This document shows positions 4,350 to 63,594 of a DNA stretch of 64,000 nucleotides, piece after piece. The notes below the pieces were generated by a model that searched no databases, was not told the DNA's origin, and saw only the letters and a program-made list of their open reading frames with translations. This DNA is from Candidatus Harrisonbacteria bacterium. Its GTDB lineage: Bacteria > Patescibacteriota > Minisyncoccia > UBA6257 > 02-FULL-45-10c. The translations under genes were made by a program, and so were the position numbers. Location: positions 131,078 to 195,077 of the forward strand of contig JACROC010000005.1 in the NCBI GenBank assembly GCA_016214655.1. Direction: 5' to 3'. Within the stretch, counting starts at the first letter, position 1. Each line of letters opens with the position of its first letter.

Positions 4350-6596
4350 TTATAATCGATGCCTACGGAGAAGAATAGCGTTGACGGCTACAATAACCGT
4401 TGAAAGCGACATAAAAACTGCGGAAATCGCCGGCTGAAGCAGAATACCTTTTGATACCAAAACTCCGGCCGCCAATGGCAAAGCTATAAGATTATAACCG
4501 GTAGCCCAAAAAAGATTTTGGATCATTTTATTATAGGTCAGACGGGAAAGTTTAATAATTTTTACGATATCCCGGGGGTCATTTCTCACTAGAATAATCC
4601 CTGCCGATTCAATCGCCACATTAGTACCGGCGCCGATTGCTATTCCCAAATCCGCCTGAGTAAGAGCCGGGGCATCATTAATGCCGTCGCCAACCATAGC
4701 AACTTTTAAAGCACGCGATTGAAGCCGCTTAACTCGATCAACCTTATCTTCCGGAAGCACCCTGGCAAAATATTCGTCTATCTGCAATTCATTGGCCACC
4801 CAATGCGCAACTTCTTCGGAATCACCGGTAAGCATTGCCGTTCTTACTCCCAAATTTTTTAATTCTTTGACTGCTTCTTTGGATTCTTCCCGGATTATAT
4901 CCGCCAGCACAATAACGCCAGCCGGCTGATCTCCGATTATTACATAATTAATCGTTTTGCCTTGCCGGGCTAAATCCAAAATCTGAGATTTCAATTCCTC
5001 CGGAATTTCCGCTTTAAACTCTTTTAAAATCTTTTCTCCGCCAACCGCCACTGTAATACTCTTCACCACCCCCCTGACGCCCTTACCCGGCAATCTCTCA
5101 AAATTTTCTACCGGCAATAATTCCACCCCCAATCTCTCAGCTTCTTTGACTATCGCCTTACTGGCAAAATGCTCAGACCGATTATCCACTGAAGCGGCGA
5201 ATTGCAGCAACTGGTATCCGGCAGCCGGAATATCCGTCCTCCTGGGCATAGTAAATTGCGACAAAGCAAATTTAAATATAGGAAACTGCGGATTGGGAAT
5301 TATTTTATCTATGCCATACTCGCCCCTGGTAAGAGTTCCGGTTTTATCAAAAAGCACGACATCAATCTTACGGGCGGCTTCCAGCGCCAGTCTTTGCCGC
5401 ACCAACAATCCATTTTGCGCGGATTTTGTGGTAGATATGGAAGCCACCAGCGGAACAGCGAGGCCCAAAGCATGCGGACAGGCGATTACCAGCACGGCAA
5501 CAAAACGCTCTAAGGCGAAAATCGCTCCCGCCCCGACGAAAATCCAATACCAAAAAGAGGATAGTCCGCTGACAATCGCTATAATAGTCAGATAGAATGC
5601 GGCGCGGTCGGATAAAATTTGAATACGCGATTTAGACGCTTGCGCTTCTTCCACCAATCTCATAACTCCGGATAAAAATGTATTTTCTCCTATTTTAGTT
5701 ATCCGTACCTTGAGGCTGCCGTCGCCATTGATGGTTCCGGCAATTACTTCGTCATTTTTTTTCTTTGCAACCGGCTTGGATTCACCGGTAACCATGGCTT
5801 CATTAATGTCCGAACTTCCATCAATTATCATCCCATCCGCCGGAATTTTTCCGCCAGGCCTGACCAAAACTACATTATCAACCCTCAATTCACTAATAGG
5901 AACGATCTTGGTTTTATCGTTCTTCATTAATATCTCCGCGGTATCCGGCAATAATTTAGAAAGTTCTTTAAGAGCGCGCTGCGCTCCCTGCACTGACCGC
6001 ATTTCTATCCAATGACCCAAAAGCATTATGGTAATCAAGCTTGTCAGCTCCCAGAACAAAGTGCTTGGCTCACCGGTAATGGTACCTAGCCGAATTAAAA
6101 GAATTTGTAAAACACTGTAAATATACGCCGCCCAGATTGCAATGCCAATCAAGGTCATCATCCCGGGAAGGCGTCCCTTAACCTCCAGCCATGCCCCGCG
6201 CGTAAATATCCAGCCGCCATAAAAAAATACAATTGTACTCAGGGCAAGCTGAATATAATCAGAACCGAGAAATGCCGGAGCTTGCCAACCCAAAAATCTT
6301 GCAGGAAGTTCCGAATAAAGCACTACCGGAATAGTCAGGGCTAAGCTAATCCAGAATTTCCGCAAAAACATCTGAGTACTGTGCCCAGCATGTTTGTCCG
6401 CAATAGATTCAGCATCGACGGATTTCCCTTCTTTTCTCTCTGCGGGTACCAGCTTCATTCCGCACTCCGGGCAAAGACCCGGTTTTTGCCGCTGAATCTC
6501 CGGATGCATCGGGCAGGTATAAATTATCCCCTCAGACACCTCTTTATCTTCATTCGCCATCTGATTATTTTTATTTTCCATATTGCAACAATCCAT
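4350..6596 (-). CDS. heavy-metal (copper) translocating P1B-type ATPase
   Basis: DKTGTLT phosphorylation motif, GDGINDAP hinge, TGES actuator motif, and the TM metal site ACPHALGL (CPH). The N-terminus has TCPMHPEIQRQKPGLCPECGMKL, a Cys-rich metal-binding module. Confidence 0.9.
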   Translation of the reverse strand: MDCCNMENKNNQMANEDKEVSEGIIYTCPMHPEIQRQKPGLCPECGMKLVPAERKEGKSVDAESIADKHAGHSTQMFLRKFWISLALTIPVVLYSELPARFLGWQAPAFLGSDYIQLALSTIVFFYGGWIFTRGAWLEVKGRLPGMMTLIGIAIWAAYIYSVLQILLIRLGTITGEPSTLFWELTSLITIMLLGHWIEMRSVQGAQRALKELSKLLPDTAEILMKNDKTKIVPISELRVDNVVLVRPGGKIPADGMIIDGSSDINEAMVTGESKPVAKKKNDEVIAGTINGDGSLKVRITKIGENTFLSGVMRLVEEAQASKSRIQILSDRAAFYLTIIAIVSGLSSFWYWIFVGAGAIFALERFVAVLVIACPHALGLAVPLVASISTTKSAQNGLLVRQRLALEAARKIDVVLFDKTGTLTRGEYGIDKIIPNPQFPIFKFALSQFTMPRRTDIPAAGYQLLQFAASVDNRSEHFASKAIVKEAERLGVELLPVENFERLPGKGVRGVVKSITVAVGGEKILKEFKAEIPEELKSQILDLARQGKTINYVIIGDQPAGVIVLADIIREESKEAVKELKNLGVRTAMLTGDSEEVAHWVANELQIDEYFARVLPEDKVDRVKRLQSRALKVAMVGDGINDAPALTQADLGIAIGAGTNVAIESAGIILVRNDPRDIVKIIKLSRLTYNKMIQNLFWATGYNLIALPLAAGVLVSKGILLQPAISAVFMSLSTVIVAVNAILLRRHRL

Positions 6597-38426: not shown

Positions 38427-39165
38427 TCACATTCACAGTCACCTCTTGACTGCCCGATTCAATACTCGGGGCCTTGGCTGCCGCAAAAGCGCCTCCGCGG
38501 CCAAATGTCTCATAAACAGGTATTGGGGGCGGATACCCGCCGGCAGACTCGGAAAAAGTCACTACCCGGCCTATCCGGACCCGATTTTGTTTTGCCATCT
38601 CTTTAGCTTTGATAGATGCTTTTTCAAAAGCTTCTTCCCTGGCTACTTTCAGATATTTATCCGGCTCATCAATATTAAAGTTCAGCGATCCAATCTGGTT
38701 AATACCCAATTCCGGCAAGGAGCCTAAAATTTTACCAATTTTAGAAAAATTGCGTATCTTCACCAAAACGGTTTGCGTTAAAGTATAGCCGCTGATAAAA
38801 GTTTTCTTCGCCTTTTCATCATATTCATAACGCGGAAACAAATTATATCCGACAGTCTTTACATCTTTATCCGCAACGCCTTGTTCTTTTATAAATTGAA
38901 TTGTGGTATTCATTGTTTTATTATTCTCATCCGCAATTTTCTCAGGATCTGCTCCCTCGCTTACTACCGAAAATGTAAAAGTTGTTACATCCGGAGAAAC
39001 CGTGGTTTTACCTTCCGCGCTGACTATTAAAGTCCGTGACGGATATAAAGATCCCTGATATTTATAAAGCGTTTTCAAAGAAGACAGCCCTAATAAAATT
39101 AATACTAATAAAGACGCGTTGACCAACCACCAAAACCAATTTTTTAATTTCTCTGGATTAAACAT
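38404..39165 (-). CDS. SIMPL (DUF541) domain protein
   Basis: Signal-anchor and the periodic pattern of 26-kDa periplasmic immunogenic-protein-like proteins (GYTLTQTVLVKIRNF..., VTVNVSVTYEI). Confidence 0.65.
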   Translation of the reverse strand: MFNPEKLKNWFWWLVNASLLVLILLGLSSLKTLYKYQGSLYPSRTLIVSAEGKTTVSPDVTTFTFSVVSEGADPEKIADENNKTMNTTIQFIKEQGVADKDVKTVGYNLFPRYEYDEKAKKTFISGYTLTQTVLVKIRNFSKIGKILGSLPELGINQIGSLNFNIDEPDKYLKVAREEAFEKASIKAKEMAKQNRVRIGRVVTFSESAGGYPPPIPVYETFGRGGAFAAAKAPSIESGSQEVTVNVSVTYEIR

Positions 39166-39877
39166 AAGAAATCATTTTTTTTACTTCTTCTTTTTTCAGA
39201 CTGGCGCCGCCGACAAGGGCGCCGTCCACCTCCTTATATTTTAAGTAGTCTCTTAGATTTCGGGAATCAACTGAACCGCCGTACAATATTTTAGGGTTTA
39301 GGGTATAGGGTTTAGCGTTCAGGATCTTTCTGATATATTTTATAGTTTCTAATGCTGATTCTGGGGTTTCGGGATTGCCAGTGCCGATTGCCCAAACAGG
39401 TTCATAAGCTACGATAAAAGGGTTTAGGGTATAGGGTCTAGGGTATAGAAAGAGGCCAATTTTTAATTGGCGCTCGATTACTGCTTCTTTTTTGCCAGCA
39501 TTTTTTTCTTCAATAGTTTCGCCAACGCAAAGAACCGGGATCAGTTTATTCTCGGCGGCGGCTTTCATTTTTTTAGCTACCATTTCATCTGTTTCATCAA
39601 ACTTATGCCGGCGCTCTGAATGGCCAATGATAACGTATTTCACCCTAACGCTTTTAAGTTCTTTTGCTGAAACTTCTCCGGTAAAAGCGCCTTTTTCTTC
39701 GTAAAAAAGATCTTGGGCTCCCAGCCGAGATTTTTTTAAAACTTTTCCTACTTCTTCCAAAAAAGGAAATGGCGGCGCCACTACGACATTTTTATAATCA
39801 CTGGCTTTTGCCAAAGAAAGCGCCTCTTTGAGAGTGGCTGGATTCATTTTCCAGTTTAAAATCAGCAGCTTTGTCAT
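39158..39877 (-). CDS. tpiA: triose-phosphate isomerase
   Basis: NWKMN, IIGHSERR and AYEPVWAIGTG motifs. Confidence 0.9.
   Translation of the reverse strand: MTKLLILNWKMNPATLKEALSLAKASDYKNVVVAPPFPFLEEVGKVLKKSRLGAQDLFYEEKGAFTGEVSAKELKSVRVKYVIIGHSERRHKFDETDEMVAKKMKAAAENKLIPVLCVGETIEEKNAGKKEAVIERQLKIGLFLYPRPYTLNPFIVAYEPVWAIGTGNPETPESALETIKYIRKILNAKPYTLNPKILYGGSVDSRNLRDYLKYKEVDGALVGGASLKKEEVKKMISYV
39292..39315. repeat. G-tract heptamer repeat copy inside tpiA (encodes KPYTLNPK)
   Basis: The plus strand reads AGGGTTTAGGGTATAGGGTTTAG. Confidence 0.8.
39419..39449. repeat. G-tract heptamer repeat copy inside tpiA (encodes YPRPYTLNPF)
   Basis: The plus strand reads GGGTTTAGGGTATAGGGTCTAGGGTATAG, with four GGG tracts spaced by 4 nt. 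Confidence 0.8.
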
Positions 39878-39926: not shown

Positions 39927-41001
39927 TTAATTTCGTAAAGAAAACCAAACCTCATTTAAAAGTCTCTCGCGTAACTCATAAGTGTTAGCATGAGACAAAG
40001 CGCCAAGATAAGATTGTAATGATTGTTCAAGTGTTATTTTAGTAATATATCCTAGGTTATATTCTTTGATGCGTTTCCGTATTTTTGTAAATATGCGATG
40101 TTTTGTCTTGATTCGTATCAACCGATACTTTGGAAATATCACATGGCCAAGAAAATCAATGCCTTGATGTAACTTACGAATTATGATTTTCTTTGGATGT
40201 AGCTCCAAAGCAAGTTTCGTCTCAAGAAACTCATTGATCTGCGGCAAAAATTTTTCTAAATAATCCTGATTTTTCGAAACAATAACAAAATCATCGGTAT
40301 AGCGAATATAGTATTTTACTTTTAACCTATGTTTCATAAACTGATCAAATTCGTTCATATAGATATTGGCGAAAAGCTGCGAAGTCAAATTCCCTATCGG
40401 AATACCTTGCGCGGCGATTCTACTCTCTCTCTCTCTCTCTCTCTCGGGCAAACGTCACGCTTTTATAACTTTCAATAATAGATTCCAGAAGCCAAATGGT
40501 GTCACTATCTTTGATACGCTTTTTGATGATGGAAAGCAGGGTTACGTGATCAACGCTGTCAAAAAACTTCCTAATATCGCATTTCAATATAAAGCAAGGA
40601 TTGGCGCCATTCTTACTGACCTTTCTCACTGCTCTTTCCAAAGCTTCCACGCCTCTATGAGTTCCGTAACCGATGCGACAGGAAAACGAGGTAGAAATAA
40701 AGGTCGATTCAAAAATCGGATTGATAATCGAGAAAATAGCATGGTGCAGAACACGATCCCGAACTACCGCTTTATGAATGTGCCGTTGTTTCGGATCCTG
40801 TATATAAAAACCGGTATATGGACCGTGTTGGTAAGTTTTATTTTTCAATTCTCGTTGAAGCTGAAAAATATTTTCCTCCAGATTCCATTCAAACCGAAGC
40901 GCATCAGATTTTTTCCGCTTATCGATTTTAAAAGCCTCCCAGGCTGAAAAAAGATTCTCCGATGAAATAATTTTTGTAAACAGATTTTTATAAATTTTCA
41001 T
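39927..41001 (-). pseudogene. DGR-type reverse transcriptase, split into two ORFs by a frameshift in a (GA)11 tract
   Basis: ORFs 40420-41001 and 39927-40451 are contiguous RT halves. The N-terminus is LFSAWEAFKIDKRKK, followed by KCDIRKFFDSVDH, GIPIGNLTSQLFANIYMNEFDQF (DGR hallmark) and the catalytic RYTDDFVIV. The downstream half is offset by 1 nt. Confidence 0.85.
40423..40445. repeat. dinucleotide microsatellite (CT)11C on the plus strand, which is (GA)n on the RT coding strand
   Basis: Read directly. It encodes the RERERERE at the junction of the two RT ORFs. Confidence 0.95.
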
Positions 41002-41015
41002 AAATAATTACCACT

Positions 41016-41366
41016 ATGGATGACTTCGATATACCAATCTTTAAAAAATCATATGAGCTCTATAAGACCTTTTACGGATATCGGCTCATGGTCTCCAAAC
41101 AAGATCGCTATACCCTGTGGCAGCGCTGTGAAAATACTATTTTGGATCTCTTGGAAAACATCTTATTGGCCAGCCAATTATCCAAAGAAGCTAAATTGCC
41201 GGCATTGGAAAAATCCAGCCTGAAATTGAATCTCCTTCGGATTCTCCTCAGGCTTTCCAAAGAAACCAAGGCAATCGACAATAAAAAATATCTTTACTTG
41301 GAAGAAATAATAGATGAAATAGGCAGGATGCTCGGCGGCTGGATCAAATCCACCAAAGATCGCTAA
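41016..41366 (+). CDS. avd: Avd-like accessory variability determinant (four-helix-bundle protein)
   Basis: 116 aa, basic and all-helical. It has the typical pattern IPIFKKSYELYKTFY...DRYTLWQRCENTILDLLENIL.A......LRILLRLSKE...IDEIGRMLGGWIK. Confidence 0.8.
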   Translation: MDDFDIPIFKKSYELYKTFYGYRLMVSKQDRYTLWQRCENTILDLLENILLASQLSKEAKLPALEKSSLKLNLLRILLRLSKETKAIDNKKYLYLEEIIDEIGRMLGGWIKSTKDR

Positions 41367-41368
41367 AC

Positions 41369-41400
41369 AAAACGCTCTCCAATTATTGGAGAGCGTTTTT
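41369..41400. terminator. bidirectional hairpin terminator between avd and the TR
   Basis: aaAACGCTCTCCaattattGGAGAGCGTTttt. Confidence 0.6.
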
Positions 41401-41416
41401 AGCGATGGGAGAAATG

Positions 41417-41535
41417 ACTTCCGAGAGGCACCGAGACCAATGTTGTTCCACCTGTTGTCATCCCAGTTGTTGTTGACGTTCAGGCCATTGCCGTCGAAGT
41501 TGCCCACATTGACGCGGTTGCCGTCCGACGTGACA
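41417..41535 (-). repeat. DGR template repeat (TR)
   Basis: 119 bp that align without gaps to 41952-42070. The TR reading frame carries 11 AAC codons (VTSDGNRVNVGNFDGNGLNVNNNWDDNRWNNIGLGASRK). Confidence 0.85.
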
Positions 41536-41821
41536 AATTTGCTCGCCCCCGTCTTTGGCACTGAAAGTCGAGGTTTGCTGTCGCCTAAGGCGACTTATAT
41601 CCTCTTCTTTCTGAATTTTATTTAGGAGCACTCCGATGTTCATCGGAGACCTCCGCTAGAAGCAAGCAAGAAGTTCTGTTCTCCATCTTTATTCACACGC
41701 TATCGCACTCCGTAGAGATGCGACACTCTGGTGACGTCTCAAAGATGAGACATCTTGCGGGATTAAACCGTGGCCTAATCTACATTAGCAAGATATTTAT
41801 ATTGTAATAAATTTGTAGAAA

Positions 41822-41861
41822 TAAAAAAAGAAGCCCCCGGCGCAAAAATCGCGCCGGAGGC
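41822..41861 (-). terminator. rho-independent terminator of the DGR target gene
   Basis: The minus strand reads GCCUCCGGCGCgauuuuuGCGCCGGGGGCUUCUUUUUUU. Confidence 0.6.
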
Positions 41862-41905
41862 TCAAGAGTTCAAGAGAGACAATCCCTCCAGAACTCAAAC
41901 TTCAT

Positions 41906-41945
41906 CCTTCGACTTCGCTCAAGATGACCCTGAGCTTGTCGAAGG
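41906..41945 (-). promoter_or_regulatory. two-part hairpin immediately 3' of the VR
   Basis: CCTTCGAC-aa-GCTCA-gggtcatct-TGAGC-gaa-GTCGAAGG (minus strand), starting 1-2 nt after the target stop codon. Confidence 0.5.
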
Positions 41946-41946
41946 G

Positions 41947-42774
41947 TCAGAACTTCCGAGAGGCACCGAGACCAAGGGAGCCCCCCCTGCCGTCATCCCA
42001 GCCGCGGAAGACGAACAGGCCATCGCCGTCGAAGAAGCCCACAACGACGCGGTAGCCGTCCGACGTGACATCCGTGGTTCGCGCATACCTCGTCGGGTTC
42101 AGATAGATGCCGTTTTTCCGGTAATAGAGAATGTCCTTGAGGACTTCCTCTACTGCGGTCGGCACCTCGTACCCTTGAGGCAGCATAGCCACTTGGTCCT
42201 GGTAGGTCTTAGACTCGGAGTTCGGAACGATCTCCAGAGGCATCAGATACCACCGGAACTTCGCGGTCAGCTTGGTTGCCCAGGTTTGCTGAGAATACCA
42301 CGAACTGGGCGCGTAGCTTGCGAACTTTGGCTGGCCGTTTTGCGGATGCAGCTCCTGCAAGTGGAGGATGGTGAGCGGTTTCCCGTTCACGTTCTCGAGC
42401 CCCAGAAACGCGAAGTGCGTTTCTTTGACTGTCTTGCCTTTGACGAGCGGGCAAGGGGCGTTGAGAACATCCTCTCCCCACGGGAACTCAGCCACTTCTC
42501 GGAGCTGCTTCTTGGTGAACTTCACGCTGTACAGCGCGGTCCACTCTTCCACTCCGAAGAAGTTCTTGCCCTGAATGGCGCGAACCACCTGGTGATTCGC
42601 CGAACCCGACGCTTTGCCGCGAAGCATGAACTCGGCTACGCGTTTCGCGTAATCCGGCTCAGCCCGCAAGCGAGCGAGGTGCTCGGTTGAGACTCCGTGA
42701 TCCTGGAGCGCTTTCAAGGTCGCTCCGACTTCTCCGTAACTGGCTTTCCAGAGACCGCCTGGGTTTGTGCTCAT
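41947..42774 (-). CDS. DGR target (variable) protein, 275 aa, with no signal peptide
   Basis: GC-rich ORF with AGGAGG 8 nt upstream of the ATG. The C-terminal 40 aa (VTSDGYRVVVGFFDGDGLFVFRGWDDGRGGSLGLGASRKF) are encoded by the VR. Confidence 0.85.
   Translation of the reverse strand: MSTNPGGLWKASYGEVGATLKALQDHGVSTEHLARLRAEPDYAKRVAEFMLRGKASGSANHQVVRAIQGKNFFGVEEWTALYSVKFTKKQLREVAEFPWGEDVLNAPCPLVKGKTVKETHFAFLGLENVNGKPLTILHLQELHPQNGQPKFASYAPSSWYSQQTWATKLTAKFRWYLMPLEIVPNSESKTYQDQVAMLPQGYEVPTAVEEVLKDILYYRKNGIYLNPTRYARTTDVTSDGYRVVVGFFDGDGLFVFRGWDDGRGGSLGLGASRKF
41952..42070 (-). repeat. DGR variable region (VR)
   Basis: There are 22 mismatches to the TR. 21 of them fall where the TR coding strand has A, and all 11 TR AAC codons are changed. 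The one exception is T->G (TGG->GGG). An invariant 3' block GGTCTCGGTGCCTCTCGGAAGT is shared with the TR. Confidence 0.85.
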
Positions 42775-55852: not shown

Positions 55853-56024
55853 ATCTGAAACTAGCCCTAAACCCTACAAACGTACGGCAAAAAATAGAGT
55901 AAGATACCCAAGAAAATTACCATTACTATGAGAAAAAAAGCCTTATCCATTGCGGAGGACGCAGTACGTAGAACGTAGCCCGTAGAATAAATAAACCTAT
56001 GAACTACTGCCTATGACCCGCGGA

Positions 56025-57880: not shown

Positions 57881-57883
57881 TTT

Positions 57884-57951
57884 AGTGGACTAGCCACTAG
57901 CGATTAGCCACTAGTATTTTTCTAGTCGCTAATCACTAAACACTAGTCGCT
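57884..57951. repeat. long imperfect intercistronic hairpin built from CTAG-containing short repeats
   Basis: AGTGGACTAGCCACTAGCGATTAGCCACTAG-tattttt-CTAGTCGCTAATCACTAAACACTAGTCGCT. The right arm overlaps the murA stop. Confidence 0.6.
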
Positions 57952-62122: not shown

Positions 62123-62896
62123 CTATTTTTTCTTTTTTGAAGTCTTCTTTTTCGCGATTTTCTTTTCTTTTTCTGCTTCAACTGGTTTCACTTCTAATTC
62201 CTTGACTTCGATATTGGAAATTTTTTCAAAATGATCCTTCAGGATATTACTGGCTTTATGCAGGGCCGCCGAAGGAGTGATACTGCCATCCGTGGTAATG
62301 GAAACAATCAAACGATTATAATCGGTCCGGTCTCCAACGCGCATGTTTCCTACCGAAAAATTAGCCTTTACTACCGGAGAAAAAGAGGCGTCCAAAGCGA
62401 TTGCGCCAATTGGCAACTTTTCAGATTTAGCCGATTCAACTGGAACAAAACCCAATCCCCGTTCAACTCGTAATTCCATTTCCAATTCAGATGACTTACT
62501 GGTTAAAGTAGCAACTTTGACATCCGGAGTGATCAAGTCTACTTCAGAATTTAATTCGATATCAGAAGCCGTAACAGCTTTCCCGCCTTTTACTTTAAGA
62601 GTCAAAGTCTGCGGCTCGTCAGTATGCAGGCGGAAACGGATCTTTTTCAAATTCAATCCCATTTCTACCATGTCCTCCATAACGCCACTCAAACTGGAAA
62701 ATTGATGCTGTACATTTTTAACTTTAAATTGAGTTATGGCTGCGCCGGGCAAAGACGAAAAAAGAACCCGCCTCAGAGCGTTTCCGACAGTCAAACCATA
62801 ACCAGTATAGAGACCCTCAATTTCAAAAACTCCCTCGGTATCCGTCTCCGAAACCTTTTTAATAGTTACCGACTCACTTAAATAAGCAAATTGCAT
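62123..62896 (-). CDS. rpoA: RNA polymerase alpha subunit; N-terminal domain only, followed by a Lys-rich tail
   Basis: GYGLTVGNALRRVLFSSLPGAAIT and the rest of the alpha-NTD. The protein ends after ~235 aa of NTD with EKEKKIAKKKTSKKKK. Confidence 0.9.
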   Translation of the reverse strand: MQFAYLSESVTIKKVSETDTEGVFEIEGLYTGYGLTVGNALRRVLFSSLPGAAITQFKVKNVQHQFSSLSGVMEDMVEMGLNLKKIRFRLHTDEPQTLTLKVKGGKAVTASDIELNSEVDLITPDVKVATLTSKSSELEMELRVERGLGFVPVESAKSEKLPIGAIALDASFSPVVKANFSVGNMRVGDRTDYNRLIVSITTDGSITPSAALHKASNILKDHFEKISNIEVKELEVKPVEAEKEKKIAKKKTSKKKK

Positions 62897-62900
62897 TTTA

Positions 62901-62973
62901 GTTAGGGGTTAGGGGTTAGGGGTTAGGGGTTAGAAATTTACTAAACCCTCAACCCTATACCCTCGACCCTCAA
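62901..62973. repeat. (GTTAGGG)4 tandem heptamers facing a CCCT-rich inverted arm; rpsD-rpoA intercistronic hairpin
   Basis: GTTAGGGGTTAGGGGTTAGGGGTTAGGGGTTAG-aaattta-CTAAACCCTCAACCCTATACCCTCGACCCTCAA. Confidence 0.85.
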
Positions 62974-62982
62974 TTTATTAAT

Positions 62983-63594
62983 TTATTTAGAATAATAATC
63001 GACGACCATATTTACATCAAACAAAACCTCCATATCTTTAGGCAAGGAAACCACTTCGCCTTCAAATTTTTCCTTGTCCAATTTTAGCCAAATTGGCGCT
63101 TCGTATTTTTTTAATCGTTCTCCCAAATCTTTTAATTGCGCGATATCTTTAGATTGCGGTCGGATACCAATTTTATCTCTAACCCGCACCAAATAAGAAG
63201 GGATACCGACTTTTTTTCCGTTAACAACAATATGCCCGTGGCTGACCAATTGGCGCGCCAGAGATCTCGACGGAGCAAGGCCTAACCGAAAAACCGCATT
63301 ATCCAGTCTGCGCTCCAATAATTGAATGATCATCTGTCCGGTTACACCCGGATTCTTAACGGCAGTGACAAAAATCTTTTTCATCTGTGCTTCCCGGATG
63401 CCATAACTGTATTTAATTTTTTGCTTTTCCTGCAGCTGTTGGCCAAATTCCGAATAAGCATGCCGGTCTTTACCATGCAATCCAGGCCGATATGCTTTTT
63501 TGATCATTACACATTTTGGTGAATTACAACGATGCGCTTTCAAGAAAAGCTTAGTTCCCAATGACCGTTCTTTTTTTTCTCTGGTATCAAACAT
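62983..63594 (-). CDS. rpsD: 30S ribosomal protein S4
   Basis: The N-terminus has LFLKAHRCNSPKC, and the S4 domain has RLDNAVFRLGLAPSRSLARQLVSHGHIVVNGK. Confidence 0.9.
   Translation of the reverse strand: MFDTREKKERSLGTKLFLKAHRCNSPKCVMIKKAYRPGLHGKDRHAYSEFGQQLQEKQKIKYSYGIREAQMKKIFVTAVKNPGVTGQMIIQLLERRLDNAVFRLGLAPSRSLARQLVSHGHIVVNGKKVGIPSYLVRVRDKIGIRPQSKDIAQLKDLGERLKKYEAPIWLKLDKEKFEGEVVSLPKDMEVLFDVNMVVDYYSK

What the first reader, a model, noticed from the sequence alone, without database searches (positions are those of the whole stretch)
39292..39449. The same G-tract heptamer repeat family is inserted twice, in frame, inside tpiA
Two segments on the plus strand belong to the same GGGT(N)3 heptamer family as the rpsD-rpoA spacer, sharing the core GAGGGTATAGGGTT. 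They are AGGGTTTAGGGTATAGGGTTTAG (39292-39315) and GGGTTTAGGGTATAGGGTCTAGGGTATAG (39419-39449).

Both lie within the triose-phosphate isomerase ORF and are read in the same frame as PYTLNP (KPYTLNPK and YPRPYTLNPF). Both fall in regions that are variable loops flanking the conserved AYEPVWAIGTG segment. The enzyme motifs remain intact, so a repeat that is otherwise intergenic appears to have been domesticated as, or tolerated in, a coding sequence. The second copy places a four-tract G4 motif on the template strand of an essential glycolytic gene.
Basis: partly seen in the sequence, partly recalled or inferred. Interest (0 to 1): 0.55.

Follow-up and report, generated by a model that had tools for sequence, protein, structure and literature searches.

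The report
Seven-base repeats encode two TpiA loops
Two surface loops of an otherwise normal triose-phosphate isomerase in a tiny-genome (Candidate Phyla Radiation) bacterium are encoded by short tandem arrays of a 7-base G-rich repeat that also forms intergenic hairpins, and related bacteria carry 7-base repeat arrays of many different sequences at the same two loops.

Summary
tpiA (39158-39877, minus strand) carries two tandem heptamer arrays, at 39290-39323 and 39419-39448. Both contain the exact 18-mer GGGTTTAGGGTATAGGGT. The only other place this family occurs in the 64 kb window is the rpsD-rpoA spacer (0 matches expected by chance).

The arrays are not net insertions. They encode the alpha5-beta6 and alpha6-beta7 loops on the non-catalytic face of the barrel, and these loops are no longer than in solved TIM structures.

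The shared unit is the DNA, not the peptide. PYTLNP uses rare codons (P about 4.5e-5 given codon usage). (CCCTAAA)3 has a stop in every frame, which TAA to TAT removes.

This is an instance of bacterial heptameric simple-sequence repeats (STRR, GGGNATC and TAACTGA types). Period 7 is the only over-represented tandem period in the window and in related Parcubacteria loci.

The unexpected part is the recurrence. Among 120 orthologs, 179 of 184 heptamer-derived peptide windows fall in these two loops. At least 15 unit families occur per site, and the PYTLNP-type repeat shows no phylogenetic signal. One related strain has lost exactly two units (14 nt), which frameshifts tpiA.

Best reading: slippage-prone repeat DNA tolerated as linker peptides. 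A nucleic-acid function is not excluded. Moderately interesting.

The parts
39158..39877 (-). tpiA, triose-phosphate isomerase, 239 aa, with intact catalytic motifs (NWK, GHSERR, AYEPVWAIGTG, YGGS)
   Evidence: ORF. Pfam TIM 3.3e-75. PDB 1b9b 1.1e-55. AlphaFold2 model with pLDDT 92.5.
39419..39448 (-). Heptamer array 1. Coding strand: CTATACCCTAGACCCTATACCCTAAACCC. It encodes LYPRPYTLNP(F), residues 144-154, the alpha5-beta6 loop.
   Evidence: TRF period 7 x4.3. Lag-7 match 18/21. Loop lies between H130-143 and E155-158 in the model.
39420..39443 (+). Canonical four-tract G-quadruplex motif GGGTTTAGGGTATAGGGTCTAGGG on the template strand of tpiA
   Evidence: Regex scan and ViennaRNA fold with G4 allowed (-10.0 vs -3.0 kcal/mol, RNA parameters). 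Sequence-level prediction only.
39290..39323 (-). Heptamer array 2. Coding strand: CTGAACGCTAAACCCTATACCCTAAACCCTAAA. It encodes LNAKPYTLNPK, residues 186-196, the alpha6-beta7 loop. The two distal units are degenerate (TTTAGCG, TTCAGGA on the + strand).
   Evidence: TRF period 7 x4.9. Codon view. Loop lies between H172-187 and E196-199.
62897..62982 (-). rpsD-rpoA spacer. A (GGGGTTA)x4.7 arm (62901-62933, G-rich on +) and an inverted arm CTAAACCCTCAACCCTATACCCTCGACCCTCAA (62941-62973) form a hairpin of 4-5-bp stems (two 4-bp stems at the apex) spaced by 1-3-nt internal loops. It ends about 7 nt before the rpoA start codon.
   Evidence: RNA fold -29.7 kcal/mol, z = -3.35. G4 motifs on both strands.
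57881..57942 (-). murA-mreB spacer. Hairpin whose two arms are heptamer arrays of a different family (GACTAGT / CTAGTGG).
   Evidence: Sequence. TRF 57889-57914. RNA fold -26.6 kcal/mol, z = -5.4.
55950..56024 (-). Spacer downstream of the holB-like gene. Heptamer-periodic hairpin of the CTACGTA family, with the same family at the orthologous spacer in L204 (806-840).
   Evidence: RNA fold z = -2.6.

Best explanation
The two segments are short arrays of a heptanucleotide simple-sequence repeat of the STRR-like, G-rich class. In this Parcubacteria lineage such repeats are generated and reshaped genome-wide by replication slippage and recombination.

In spacers between co-directional genes the arrays occur as inverted pairs that fold into periodic hairpins.

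In coding DNA an array survives only under three conditions:
- The net length keeps the reading frame. Three units equal 21 nt, or 7 residues.
- The coding strand has no stop codon. The C-rich strand is used because the G-rich strand has TAG in every frame, and the one TAA per (CCCTAAA)3 has been changed to TAT, giving PYTLNPK.
- The protein tolerates arbitrary sequence at that position.

In TIM that position is the alpha5-beta6 and alpha6-beta7 loops, on the barrel face opposite the active site.

The arrays therefore now simply encode linker peptides. The template-strand G4 motif is a by-product.

Shown: the periodicity, the rare-codon signature, the structural location, clade-wide occupancy of the two loops by many heptamer families, and a unit-sized deletion in a related strain.

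Inferred: the slippage and recombination origin, and the absence of a dedicated function.
For: - Period 7 is the only over-represented tandem period. The window has 7 arrays against 0.15 in shuffles, with at most 1 array at every other lag from 4 to 15 except 14 (the double period, 4 arrays). Ten related loci have 36 arrays at lag 7 against at most 5 at other lags.
- PYTLNP is encoded by CCC TAT ACC CTA AAC CCT although CCC is 12%, CTA 5%, AAC 21% and CCT 16% of their synonymous sets. P(codons | peptide) = 4.5e-5, and the string is used twice.
- Both segments are alpha-to-beta loops in a confident model, with no net insertion against 1b9b.
- 16 of 22 loop sites in 11 Parcubacteria tpiA genes reach at least 15/21 lag-7 matches. 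The rest of each gene reaches at most 14. In 72 unrelated tpiA genes the lag-7 identity at these sites is 0.10-0.45.
- 179 of 184 heptamer-derived 8-aa windows in 120 orthologs lie in the two loops. None lies there in 73 control TpiA proteins.
- A strain variant (L209) of the Yanofskybacteria ortholog has an exact 14-nt, two-unit deletion inside the site-1 array, which splits tpiA.
- The same family is found in frame in Mur ligase, KsgA, PGM and BipA.
- The literature describes the class: heptamers with a preference for four units, lying between aligned ORFs (PMC4692102), and a few in-ORF copies (PMC4679880).
Against: - The exact 18-mer CCCTATACCCTAAACCCT is retained in 6 of 9 PYTLNP-like sites across genes whose same-codon rate at conserved residues is only 0.43-0.55. 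This hints at DNA-level maintenance or repeated re-creation, which a pure passenger model does not predict.
- The PYTLNP-type character shows no phylogenetic signal: 10 Fitch steps for 12 positives and 15 steps for 16 positives. The simple model needs heavy recombination or recurrent gain to explain this.
- No unit-number polymorphism was seen within eight strain-level clusters.
- The single deletion variant comes from one metagenome contig and could be an assembly error.
- No experiment bears on function.
- Only 64 kb of this genome was available.
Confidence: 0.62

Rival explanations
1. The arrays are functional nucleic-acid elements. Candidates are a G-quadruplex on the template strand, or a binding site for a repeat-recognising protein or RNA. 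Such an element would modulate transcription, replication or mRNA fate of tpiA, and it is the DNA or RNA that is under selection.
For: - The 18-mer is conserved beyond the synonymous expectation.
- Site 1 has exactly four G-tracts, the number preferred by G4-forming heptamers in Xanthomonas and Nostoc (PMC4692102).
- Three of the window's four loci with a canonical G4 motif belong to this family.
- The intergenic arrays abut start codons, like the TAACTGA repeats proposed to be regulator sites (PMC4679880).
Against: - Site 2 has only three G-tracts.
- Orthologs carry non-G-rich heptamers (AGTCAAA, TGTCAAA, GTCATTA, AATTGGA, ACTTTCG) at the same loops, so no single motif is required there.
- In the closest relative (L199), site 1 has drifted by synonymous changes that destroy the repeat but keep the peptide.
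Confidence: 0.15
2. The peptide PYTLNP is what is selected, for example as a proline-rich turn that stabilises the barrel bottom or mediates an interaction. On this view the nucleotide periodicity is incidental.
For: - The peptide recurs at two equivalent alpha-to-beta loops.
- In L199, 4 of 5 differences in the site-1 array are synonymous.
- The loops are modelled with high confidence, with pLDDT about 89-95.
Against: - The codon choice is rare for this genome and identical across lineages.
- The same nucleotides occur in non-coding spacers.
- Most orthologs have unrelated peptides at these loops, and these are themselves translations of other heptamers.
Confidence: 0.1
3. The segments are copies of a small mobile element that inserted in frame, comparable to Rickettsia palindromic elements, MITEs or REP sequences.
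For: - Dispersed copies of one family occur in coding and non-coding DNA.
- The distribution among orthologs is patchy.
- The family is present in many phyla.
Against: - There is no net length gain.
- The arrays are only 30-34 nt, with no terminal inverted repeats or target duplications.
- The tpiA copies are single arms, not palindromes.
- The unit-sized deletion points to slippage.
- Nothing nearby encodes a transposase. The adjacent reverse transcriptase belongs to a diversity-generating retroelement that is absent from relatives which still have the arrays.
Confidence: 0.08

Closest known systems
G-rich heptameric repeats GGGNATC / GGGGA(C/T)T of Xanthomonas and Nostoc (Rehm et al. 2015, PMC4692102)
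   Same: - A 7-nt unit containing a G3-4 tract.
- Arrays of about four units.
- A four-tract G4 motif.
- Dispersed copies, preferentially between co-directional ORFs and close to start or stop codons.
- Inverted arrangements that can form stem-loops.
- The G-rich strand is avoided as the coding strand.
   Different: - The unit sequence differs (GGGTTTA / GGGTATA / GGGGTTA).
- The host is a Candidate Phyla Radiation bacterium.
- Here two arrays lie inside the catalytic domain of an essential enzyme and are translated.
- G4 formation was not tested.
TAACTGA direct repeats of Beggiatoaceae, cyanobacteria and Bacteroidetes (MacGregor 2015, PMC4679880)
   Same: - Heptamer arrays of 2-6 copies immediately upstream of start codons, including in ribosomal-protein operons.
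- Stop codons in all three frames in one orientation.
- A minority of copies lie in ORFs in the open orientation, giving a cyclic heptapeptide (LSVISYQ there, PYTLNPK here).
   Different: In that study the in-ORF copies sit mostly at protein termini or in hypothetical proteins. Here they form internal loops of a conserved enzyme, and the same two loops host many unit families across a clade.
Cyanobacterial STRR (short tandemly repeated repetitive) heptanucleotides (Calothrix PCC 7601; cited in PMC4692102 as ref. 39; the name STRR and the attribution to Mazel et al. 1990 are from my own knowledge)
   Same: Several distinct tandem heptanucleotide families coexist in one genome, and their function is unknown.
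   Different: STRR are described as non-coding. The lineage, unit sequences and array lengths differ.
Rickettsia palindromic elements inserted in frame in protein genes (Ogata et al. 2000; from my own knowledge, not checked here)
   Same: Repeat DNA is translated as part of housekeeping proteins, at surface positions that do not disturb the fold.
   Different: RPEs are palindromic elements of about 100-150 bp that add residues. Here the arrays are 30-34 nt tandem heptamers, with no net insertion and no palindrome within tpiA.
Tandem repeats of Borg elements that create disordered protein regions (PMC9879509; only the abstract was seen)
   Same: Rapidly evolving tandem nucleotide repeats within ORFs generate new peptide segments.
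   Different: From general knowledge, in-ORF Borg repeat units are multiples of 3 nt. Here the unit is 7 nt, so only three-unit blocks keep the frame.

Membership tests
Bacterial heptameric simple-sequence repeats (STRR-like / G-rich heptamer class) | Head-to-tail copies of a 7-nt unit | tested here: met
   TRF finds period 7 with 4.3 and 4.9 copies. Lag-7 matches are 18/21 at both sites.
Bacterial heptameric simple-sequence repeats (STRR-like / G-rich heptamer class) | Period 7 specifically over-represented in the genome relative to other periods | tested here: met
   The window has 7 arrays at lag 7 against at most 1 at other lags apart from 14 (the double period, 4 arrays), and 0.15 in shuffles. 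Related loci have 36 against at most 5. Only 64 kb of this genome was available.
Bacterial heptameric simple-sequence repeats (STRR-like / G-rich heptamer class) | Dispersed copies, mainly between co-directional ORFs and near start or stop codons | tested here: met
   Copies lie in the rpsD-rpoA, murA-mreB and holB-downstream spacers. The two tpiA copies are the coding exceptions.
Bacterial heptameric simple-sequence repeats (STRR-like / G-rich heptamer class) | Unit-number change by slippage | tested here: inconclusive
   One related strain contig has an exact two-unit (14 nt) deletion. No length polymorphism was seen in eight strain-level clusters. No population data exist for this genome.
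Bacterial heptameric simple-sequence repeats (STRR-like / G-rich heptamer class) | G-quadruplex formation by the G-rich strand (for the G-rich subclass) | not testable with these tools
   Only the sequence motif (G3N4)x4 at 39420-39443 and an RNA-parameter prediction are available.
Triose-phosphate isomerase (Pfam PF00121) | Full-length TIM-barrel match with the catalytic Lys (NWK), His (GHSERR), Glu (AYEP), loop 6 (PVWAIGTG) and YGGS | tested here: met
   Pfam match covers 4-238 of 239 residues at 3.3e-75. H86, E159 and Y199-S202 are invariant in 50 orthologs. The model shows an eight-fold beta/alpha pattern.
In-frame selfish palindromic elements (Rickettsia RPE type) | A palindromic element of about 100-150 bp that adds residues relative to orthologs | tested here: not met
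   The arrays are 30-34 nt and are not palindromic within tpiA. The loops are 1 and 3 residues shorter than in 1b9b.
MITE / REP elements | Terminal inverted repeats, target-site duplication, defined ends | tested here: not met
   None is visible at either array. Unit composition varies between copies.
Phase-variable contingency locus | A perfect repeat tract whose unit number varies between close strains and switches the frame | tested here: not met
   The units are imperfect. The loops are identical within strain clusters. The single frameshift variant is in another species-level lineage.

The most novel reading that the evidence does not exclude
In Parcubacteria the alpha5-beta6 and alpha6-beta7 loops of TpiA, and comparable loops of other housekeeping enzymes, may be standing landing pads. 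Tandem heptanucleotide arrays of many unit families would be repeatedly written, homogenised and replaced there at constant length. That would imply an active, still unidentified heptamer-generating or heptamer-converting process, rather than ordinary slippage plus drift. These orthologous sites would then give a natural time series for working out why bacterial genomes favour 7-nt repeats, an open question since the STRR were described.
Probability: 0.3. Interest if true: 0.65.

Novelty: new variant of a known kind. Interest (0 to 1): 0.48.

Why it matters
Heptameric repeats are known to be over-represented in many bacteria, but their origin and function remain unexplained. They have been regarded as essentially non-coding.

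This locus shows them being translated inside the core domain of an essential enzyme. Comparison with 120 orthologs shows that two specific loops are encoded by heptamer arrays in about 44% of a whole clade, with many unit families.

If this holds genome-wide, three things follow:
- Heptamer repeats are a major source of loop sequence novelty in Candidate Phyla Radiation proteins.
- They are a source of gene-inactivating slippage.
- They are a confounder for alignment, phylogeny and 'lineage-specific insertion' calls in these genomes.

The locus also offers orthologous, datable sites for studying the turnover of these repeats.

Tried and rejected
- **Metagenome scan for TpiA relatives.** These were useless as orthologs and were reused as negative controls.
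- **Genome-collection scan for GGGTWTAGGGTWTAGGGT.** It did not return this MAG, so no whole-genome census was possible. Many hits are pure (TTTAGGG)n at contig ends and look like eukaryotic telomere contamination.
- **Link to the adjacent reverse transcriptase.** Rejected. It belongs to a diversity-generating retroelement inserted between the VTT-domain gene and tpiA. Relatives without it have the same arrays.
- **Hairpin between the two tpiA arrays.** Rejected. They are direct, not inverted, repeats, and no complementary arm exists nearby.
- **Unit-number polymorphism within strain clusters.** None was found. Length differences come from start-codon calls or truncations.
- **The extra 57 nt in the L207 site-1 loop.** No repeated copy was found in the held loci.
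- **Literature search for heptamer repeats in Patescibacteria or Candidate Phyla Radiation bacteria.** Nothing was found in the held library.

Full report
**1. What is there.**
The ORF at 39158..39877 on the minus strand encodes a 239-aa triose-phosphate isomerase. It matches Pfam TIM at 3.3e-75 and Thermotoga TIM 1b9b at 1.1e-55. It is 100% identical to a protein of a 'Candidatus Harrisonbacteria' MAG on a 271,595-bp contig.

Tandem Repeats Finder reports two period-7 arrays inside the gene. One is at 39290-39323 (TTTAGGG x4.9) and one at 39419-39448 (x4.3). Both contain the exact 18-mer GGGTTTAGGGTATAGGGT.

The three-unit pattern GGGTNNNGGGTNNNGGGT occurs 7 times in the window: 3 times in tpiA and 4 times in the rpsD-rpoA spacer. 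None is expected in 100 dinucleotide-preserving shuffles. Even the two-unit pattern is found in only one other place.

On the coding (minus) strand the arrays read as follows:
- CTA TAC CCT AGA CCC TAT ACC CTA AAC CCT = LYPRPYTLNP
- CTG AAC GCT AAA CCC TAT ACC CTA AAC CCT AAA = LNAKPYTLNPK

The exact core shared with the spacer is AGGGTATAGGGT(T), not the 14-mer quoted.

**2. The intergenic relative.**
rpsD (62983-63594) and rpoA (62123-62896) are both on the minus strand. The 86-nt spacer between them consists of (GGGGTTA)x4.7, a 7-nt loop, and an inverted arm CTAAACCCTCAACCCTATACCCTCGACCCTCAA.

As RNA it folds into a hairpin of 4-5-bp stems (two 4-bp stems at the apex) separated by 1-3-nt internal loops (-29.7 kcal/mol, z = -3.35). 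It ends about 7 nt before the rpoA start codon.

Two further spacers have the same architecture with other heptamers. The murA-mreB spacer (57881-57942) folds with z = -5.4. The spacer downstream of the holB-like gene (about 55950-56024) folds with z = -2.6.

**3. Period 7 is special in this genome.**
I counted windows in which at least 16 of 21 positions match at a given lag. The window has 7 arrays at lag 7. It has at most 1 at every other lag from 4 to 15, apart from 14, the double period. Shuffles give 0.15.

Ten loci around tpiA orthologs from related Parcubacteria give 36 arrays at lag 7 and at most 5 at any other lag. That is 22.6 arrays per 100 kb there, 10.9 in the window, and 4.4 in 770 kb of unrelated bacterial loci.

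The unrelated loci also show a milder lag-7 excess, often as inverted pairs. This agrees with published reports that heptamers are over-represented among bacterial simple-sequence repeats (PMC4692102).

**4. The shared unit is the nucleotide repeat, not the peptide.**
In long ORFs of the window, CCC is 12% of Pro codons, CCT 16%, CTA 5% of Leu codons and AAC 21% of Asn codons. The probability of encoding PYTLNP as CCC TAT ACC CTA AAC CCT is 4.5e-5, yet the gene does so twice.

(CCCTAAA)3 reads CCC TAA ACC CTA AAC CCT AAA. Because 7 and 3 are coprime, it contains a stop in every frame. The TAT variant sits exactly where the frame would read TAA. The G-rich strand has TAG in every frame, which explains why all in-ORF copies found anywhere use the C-rich strand.

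**5. Structure.**
An AlphaFold2 model built on 50 orthologs is confident (pLDDT 92.5, pTM 0.91). Its elements around the arrays are:
- alpha5 = 130-143, loop = 144-154 (LYPRPYTLNPF), beta6 = 155-158
- alpha6 = 172-187, loop = 188-195 (within KPYTLNPK), beta7 = 196-199

Both arrays therefore encode alpha-to-beta loops. By the established geometry of TIM barrels, these lie on the N-terminal face of the barrel. That face is opposite the catalytic C-terminal face and away from the loop-1-to-4 dimer interface.

Against 1b9b the two regions are 1 and 3 residues shorter. In the ortholog alignment they have the usual length. There is therefore no net insertion. The repeats occupy the place of ordinary loop sequence.

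**6. Orthologs.**
Ortholog DNA was fetched for ten relatives of 53-83% identity. Wherever a PYTLNP-like peptide is present, it is encoded by the same heptamers. The exact 18-mer CCCTATACCCTAAACCCT occurs in 6 of 9 such sites. Elsewhere in these genes the same-codon rate at conserved residues is only 0.43-0.55.

The closest relative (L199, 80% nucleotide identity) has site 1 with mostly synonymous drift. At site 2 it has a different heptamer array of the same length (ACTTTCG type, STFDFPLST).

Other relatives carry AGTCAAA/TGTCAAA, GTCATTA, AATTGGA or GTCAAAT arrays at one or both loops.

In 11 genes, 16 of 22 loop sites reach at least 15/21 lag-7 matches. The rest of each gene never exceeds 14. 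In 72 unrelated tpiA genes, lag-7 identity at these sites is 0.10-0.45, which is background.

**7. Protein-level survey.**
I compared every 8-residue window of the 120 best orthologs with the translations of all 16,380 non-homopolymeric tandem heptamers, allowing one mismatch. Of 28,241 windows, 184 match, and 179 of those lie in the two loops (97 at site 1 and 82 at site 2). Fifty-three orthologs have at least one such loop and 19 have both. At least 15 unit families occur per site.

Seventy-three control TpiA proteins have no hit at these loops.

On a neighbour-joining tree built with the loops masked, the PYTLNP-type character needs 10 Fitch steps for 12 positives at site 1 and 15 steps for 16 positives at site 2. 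This is indistinguishable from shuffled labels.

A read-derived member of the P0005 cluster (P0130) is a mosaic. Its N-terminal part is almost identical to P0005 (one difference in the first 113 residues), but its site 1 is encoded by a CCAATTA-type array (LPITNYQL). This suggests that recombination between alleles contributes to the scatter.

**8. Slippage.**
One contig (L209) from a strain of the Yanofskybacteria ortholog is identical to L202 over 131 nt around site 1, apart from one substitution and an exact 14-nt, two-unit deletion inside the array. The deletion splits tpiA into 160-aa and 67-aa ORFs.

This is the signature of unit-wise slippage. It also shows the cost of carrying a 7-nt repeat in a gene. 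It rests on a single metagenome contig. Within eight strain-level clusters the loops were otherwise invariant.

**9. Not unique to tpiA.**
The truncated genome-collection scan found the same GGGT(A/T)TA family in many phyla. It is in frame within the Pfam-defined domains of a Mur ligase (Patescibacteria, L089), KsgA (Staskawiczbacteria, L040) and a phosphoglucomutase (Elusimicrobia, L118). In BipA (L019) it lies between two domains, as an in-frame inverted pair.

In the related loci, other heptamer arrays sit in frame in SecA, a penicillin-binding protein, DNA ligase, a Mur ligase and ProS.

**10. G-quadruplex.**
The canonical motif (G3+N1-7)x4 occurs at only four loci in the window: 39420-39443 (+), both strands of the rpsD-rpoA spacer, and 1797 (-). 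The other array has three G-tracts.

Whether a G4 forms, or matters, cannot be tested here. Orthologs with non-G-rich heptamers at the same loop argue that it is not required.

**11. Interpretation and comparison with the literature.**
The arrays match the known class of bacterial heptameric repeats:
- G-rich GGGNATC and GGGGA(C/T)T repeats, with a preference for four units, located between aligned ORFs, and under-represented in coding regions (PMC4692102).
- TAACTGA repeats next to start codons, with a few in-ORF copies at protein termini that give a cyclic heptapeptide (PMC4679880).
- The tandem heptanucleotides of Calothrix (cited in PMC4692102).

Three things differ here. The host lineage is new: no report for Candidate Phyla Radiation bacteria was found in the held library. 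The arrays are translated inside the core domain of an essential enzyme. Two fixed loops are occupied clade-wide and repeatedly by many unit families.

The most economical mechanism has three parts. A high rate of heptamer-array formation and slippage supplies the arrays. Selection confines survivors to frame-preserving, stop-free arrays in loops that tolerate any sequence. Recombination shuffles the alleles.

The excess nucleotide conservation of the 18-mer and the lack of phylogenetic signal are not fully explained by this model. They keep open a DNA- or RNA-level function, or an active repeat-writing or repeat-converting process.

Noticed in passing
window 39927-42774 (minus strand): A complete diversity-generating retroelement lies immediately upstream of tpiA. 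The reverse transcriptase spans 39927-41001 and carries an IGNLTSQ motif. The template repeat is at 41417-41535. The variable repeat is at 41952-42070, at the 3' end of a 275-aa target gene (41947-42774) with no Pfam match. Nearly all of the TR/VR mismatches fall at TR adenines. The cassette sits between the VTT-domain gene and tpiA, which are adjacent in relatives.
   Followed up: partly
window 40423-40445: A (CT)11.5 dinucleotide tract, translated as RERERERE, splits the reverse transcriptase into two overlapping ORFs (40420-41001 and 39927-40451). This could be a frameshift, a phase-variable switch or an assembly error.
   Followed up: no
window 57881-57942 and 55950-56024; L204 806-840 and 8338-8369: Intergenic hairpins have heptamer arrays of other families (GACTAGT/CTAGTGG and CTACGTA) as both arms. 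They lie directly upstream of the next gene's start codon. The CTACGTA array is conserved at the orthologous holB-downstream spacer in L204.
   Followed up: partly
L199 8152-8247 (SecA); L019 3327-5261 (BipA): Inverted pairs of heptamer arrays, which are potential hairpins, lie in frame inside conserved genes. In SecA the peptides are EQISNSQLPISN and FRNWKLDIGNS. In BipA they are GLGFRVEGIG and GPKPYTLNPIPS.
   Followed up: no
L209 1880-2010 versus L202 10392-10540: A strain variant of a Yanofskybacteria tpiA has an exact two-unit (14 nt) deletion in the site-1 heptamer array. This yields a split gene of 160 aa plus 67 aa.
   Followed up: yes
P0130 (read-derived member of the P0005 cluster): This is a mosaic TpiA. 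Its first ~115 residues are almost identical to P0005 (one difference in the first 113). The sequence then diverges, and site 1 is encoded by a different heptamer (LPITNYQL, CCAATTA type). This hints at recombination between alleles.
   Followed up: no
L207 10421-10542 (tpiA site 1); also P0039, P0064, P0071 at site 2: Some orthologs have an extra 20-40 residues inserted within the heptamer-array loop. In L207 the insert is GC-rich and flanked by ATTGAAAAT on both sides. This recalls small elements that insert into heptamer arrays in cyanobacteria (from my own knowledge). No second copy was found in the held loci.
   Followed up: partly
L001, L022, L029, L037, L099, L112 and others: Long pure (TTTAGGG)n runs occur at the ends of contigs in MAGs assigned to Alphaproteobacteria, Rhodothermales and other groups, with up to 260 pattern matches in 8 kb. 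They look like plant-type or other eukaryotic telomere contamination, or mis-binned contigs.
   Followed up: no
window 39294 and 39420: The two tpiA arrays are exactly 126 nt apart, which equals 42 codons and 18 heptamer units. They are therefore in phase for both the codon and the heptamer. The same 42-residue spacing holds in L200. It is probably just the length of one beta-alpha unit, with a 1-in-7 chance of heptamer phase.
   Followed up: no
window 5277-5300 (P-type ATPase, 4350-6596 minus strand): A degenerate AATTCCC-type heptamer trace (IPNPQFPI) follows the DKTGT motif. The same unit family is seen in frame in the L199, L200 and L206 genes.
   Followed up: no
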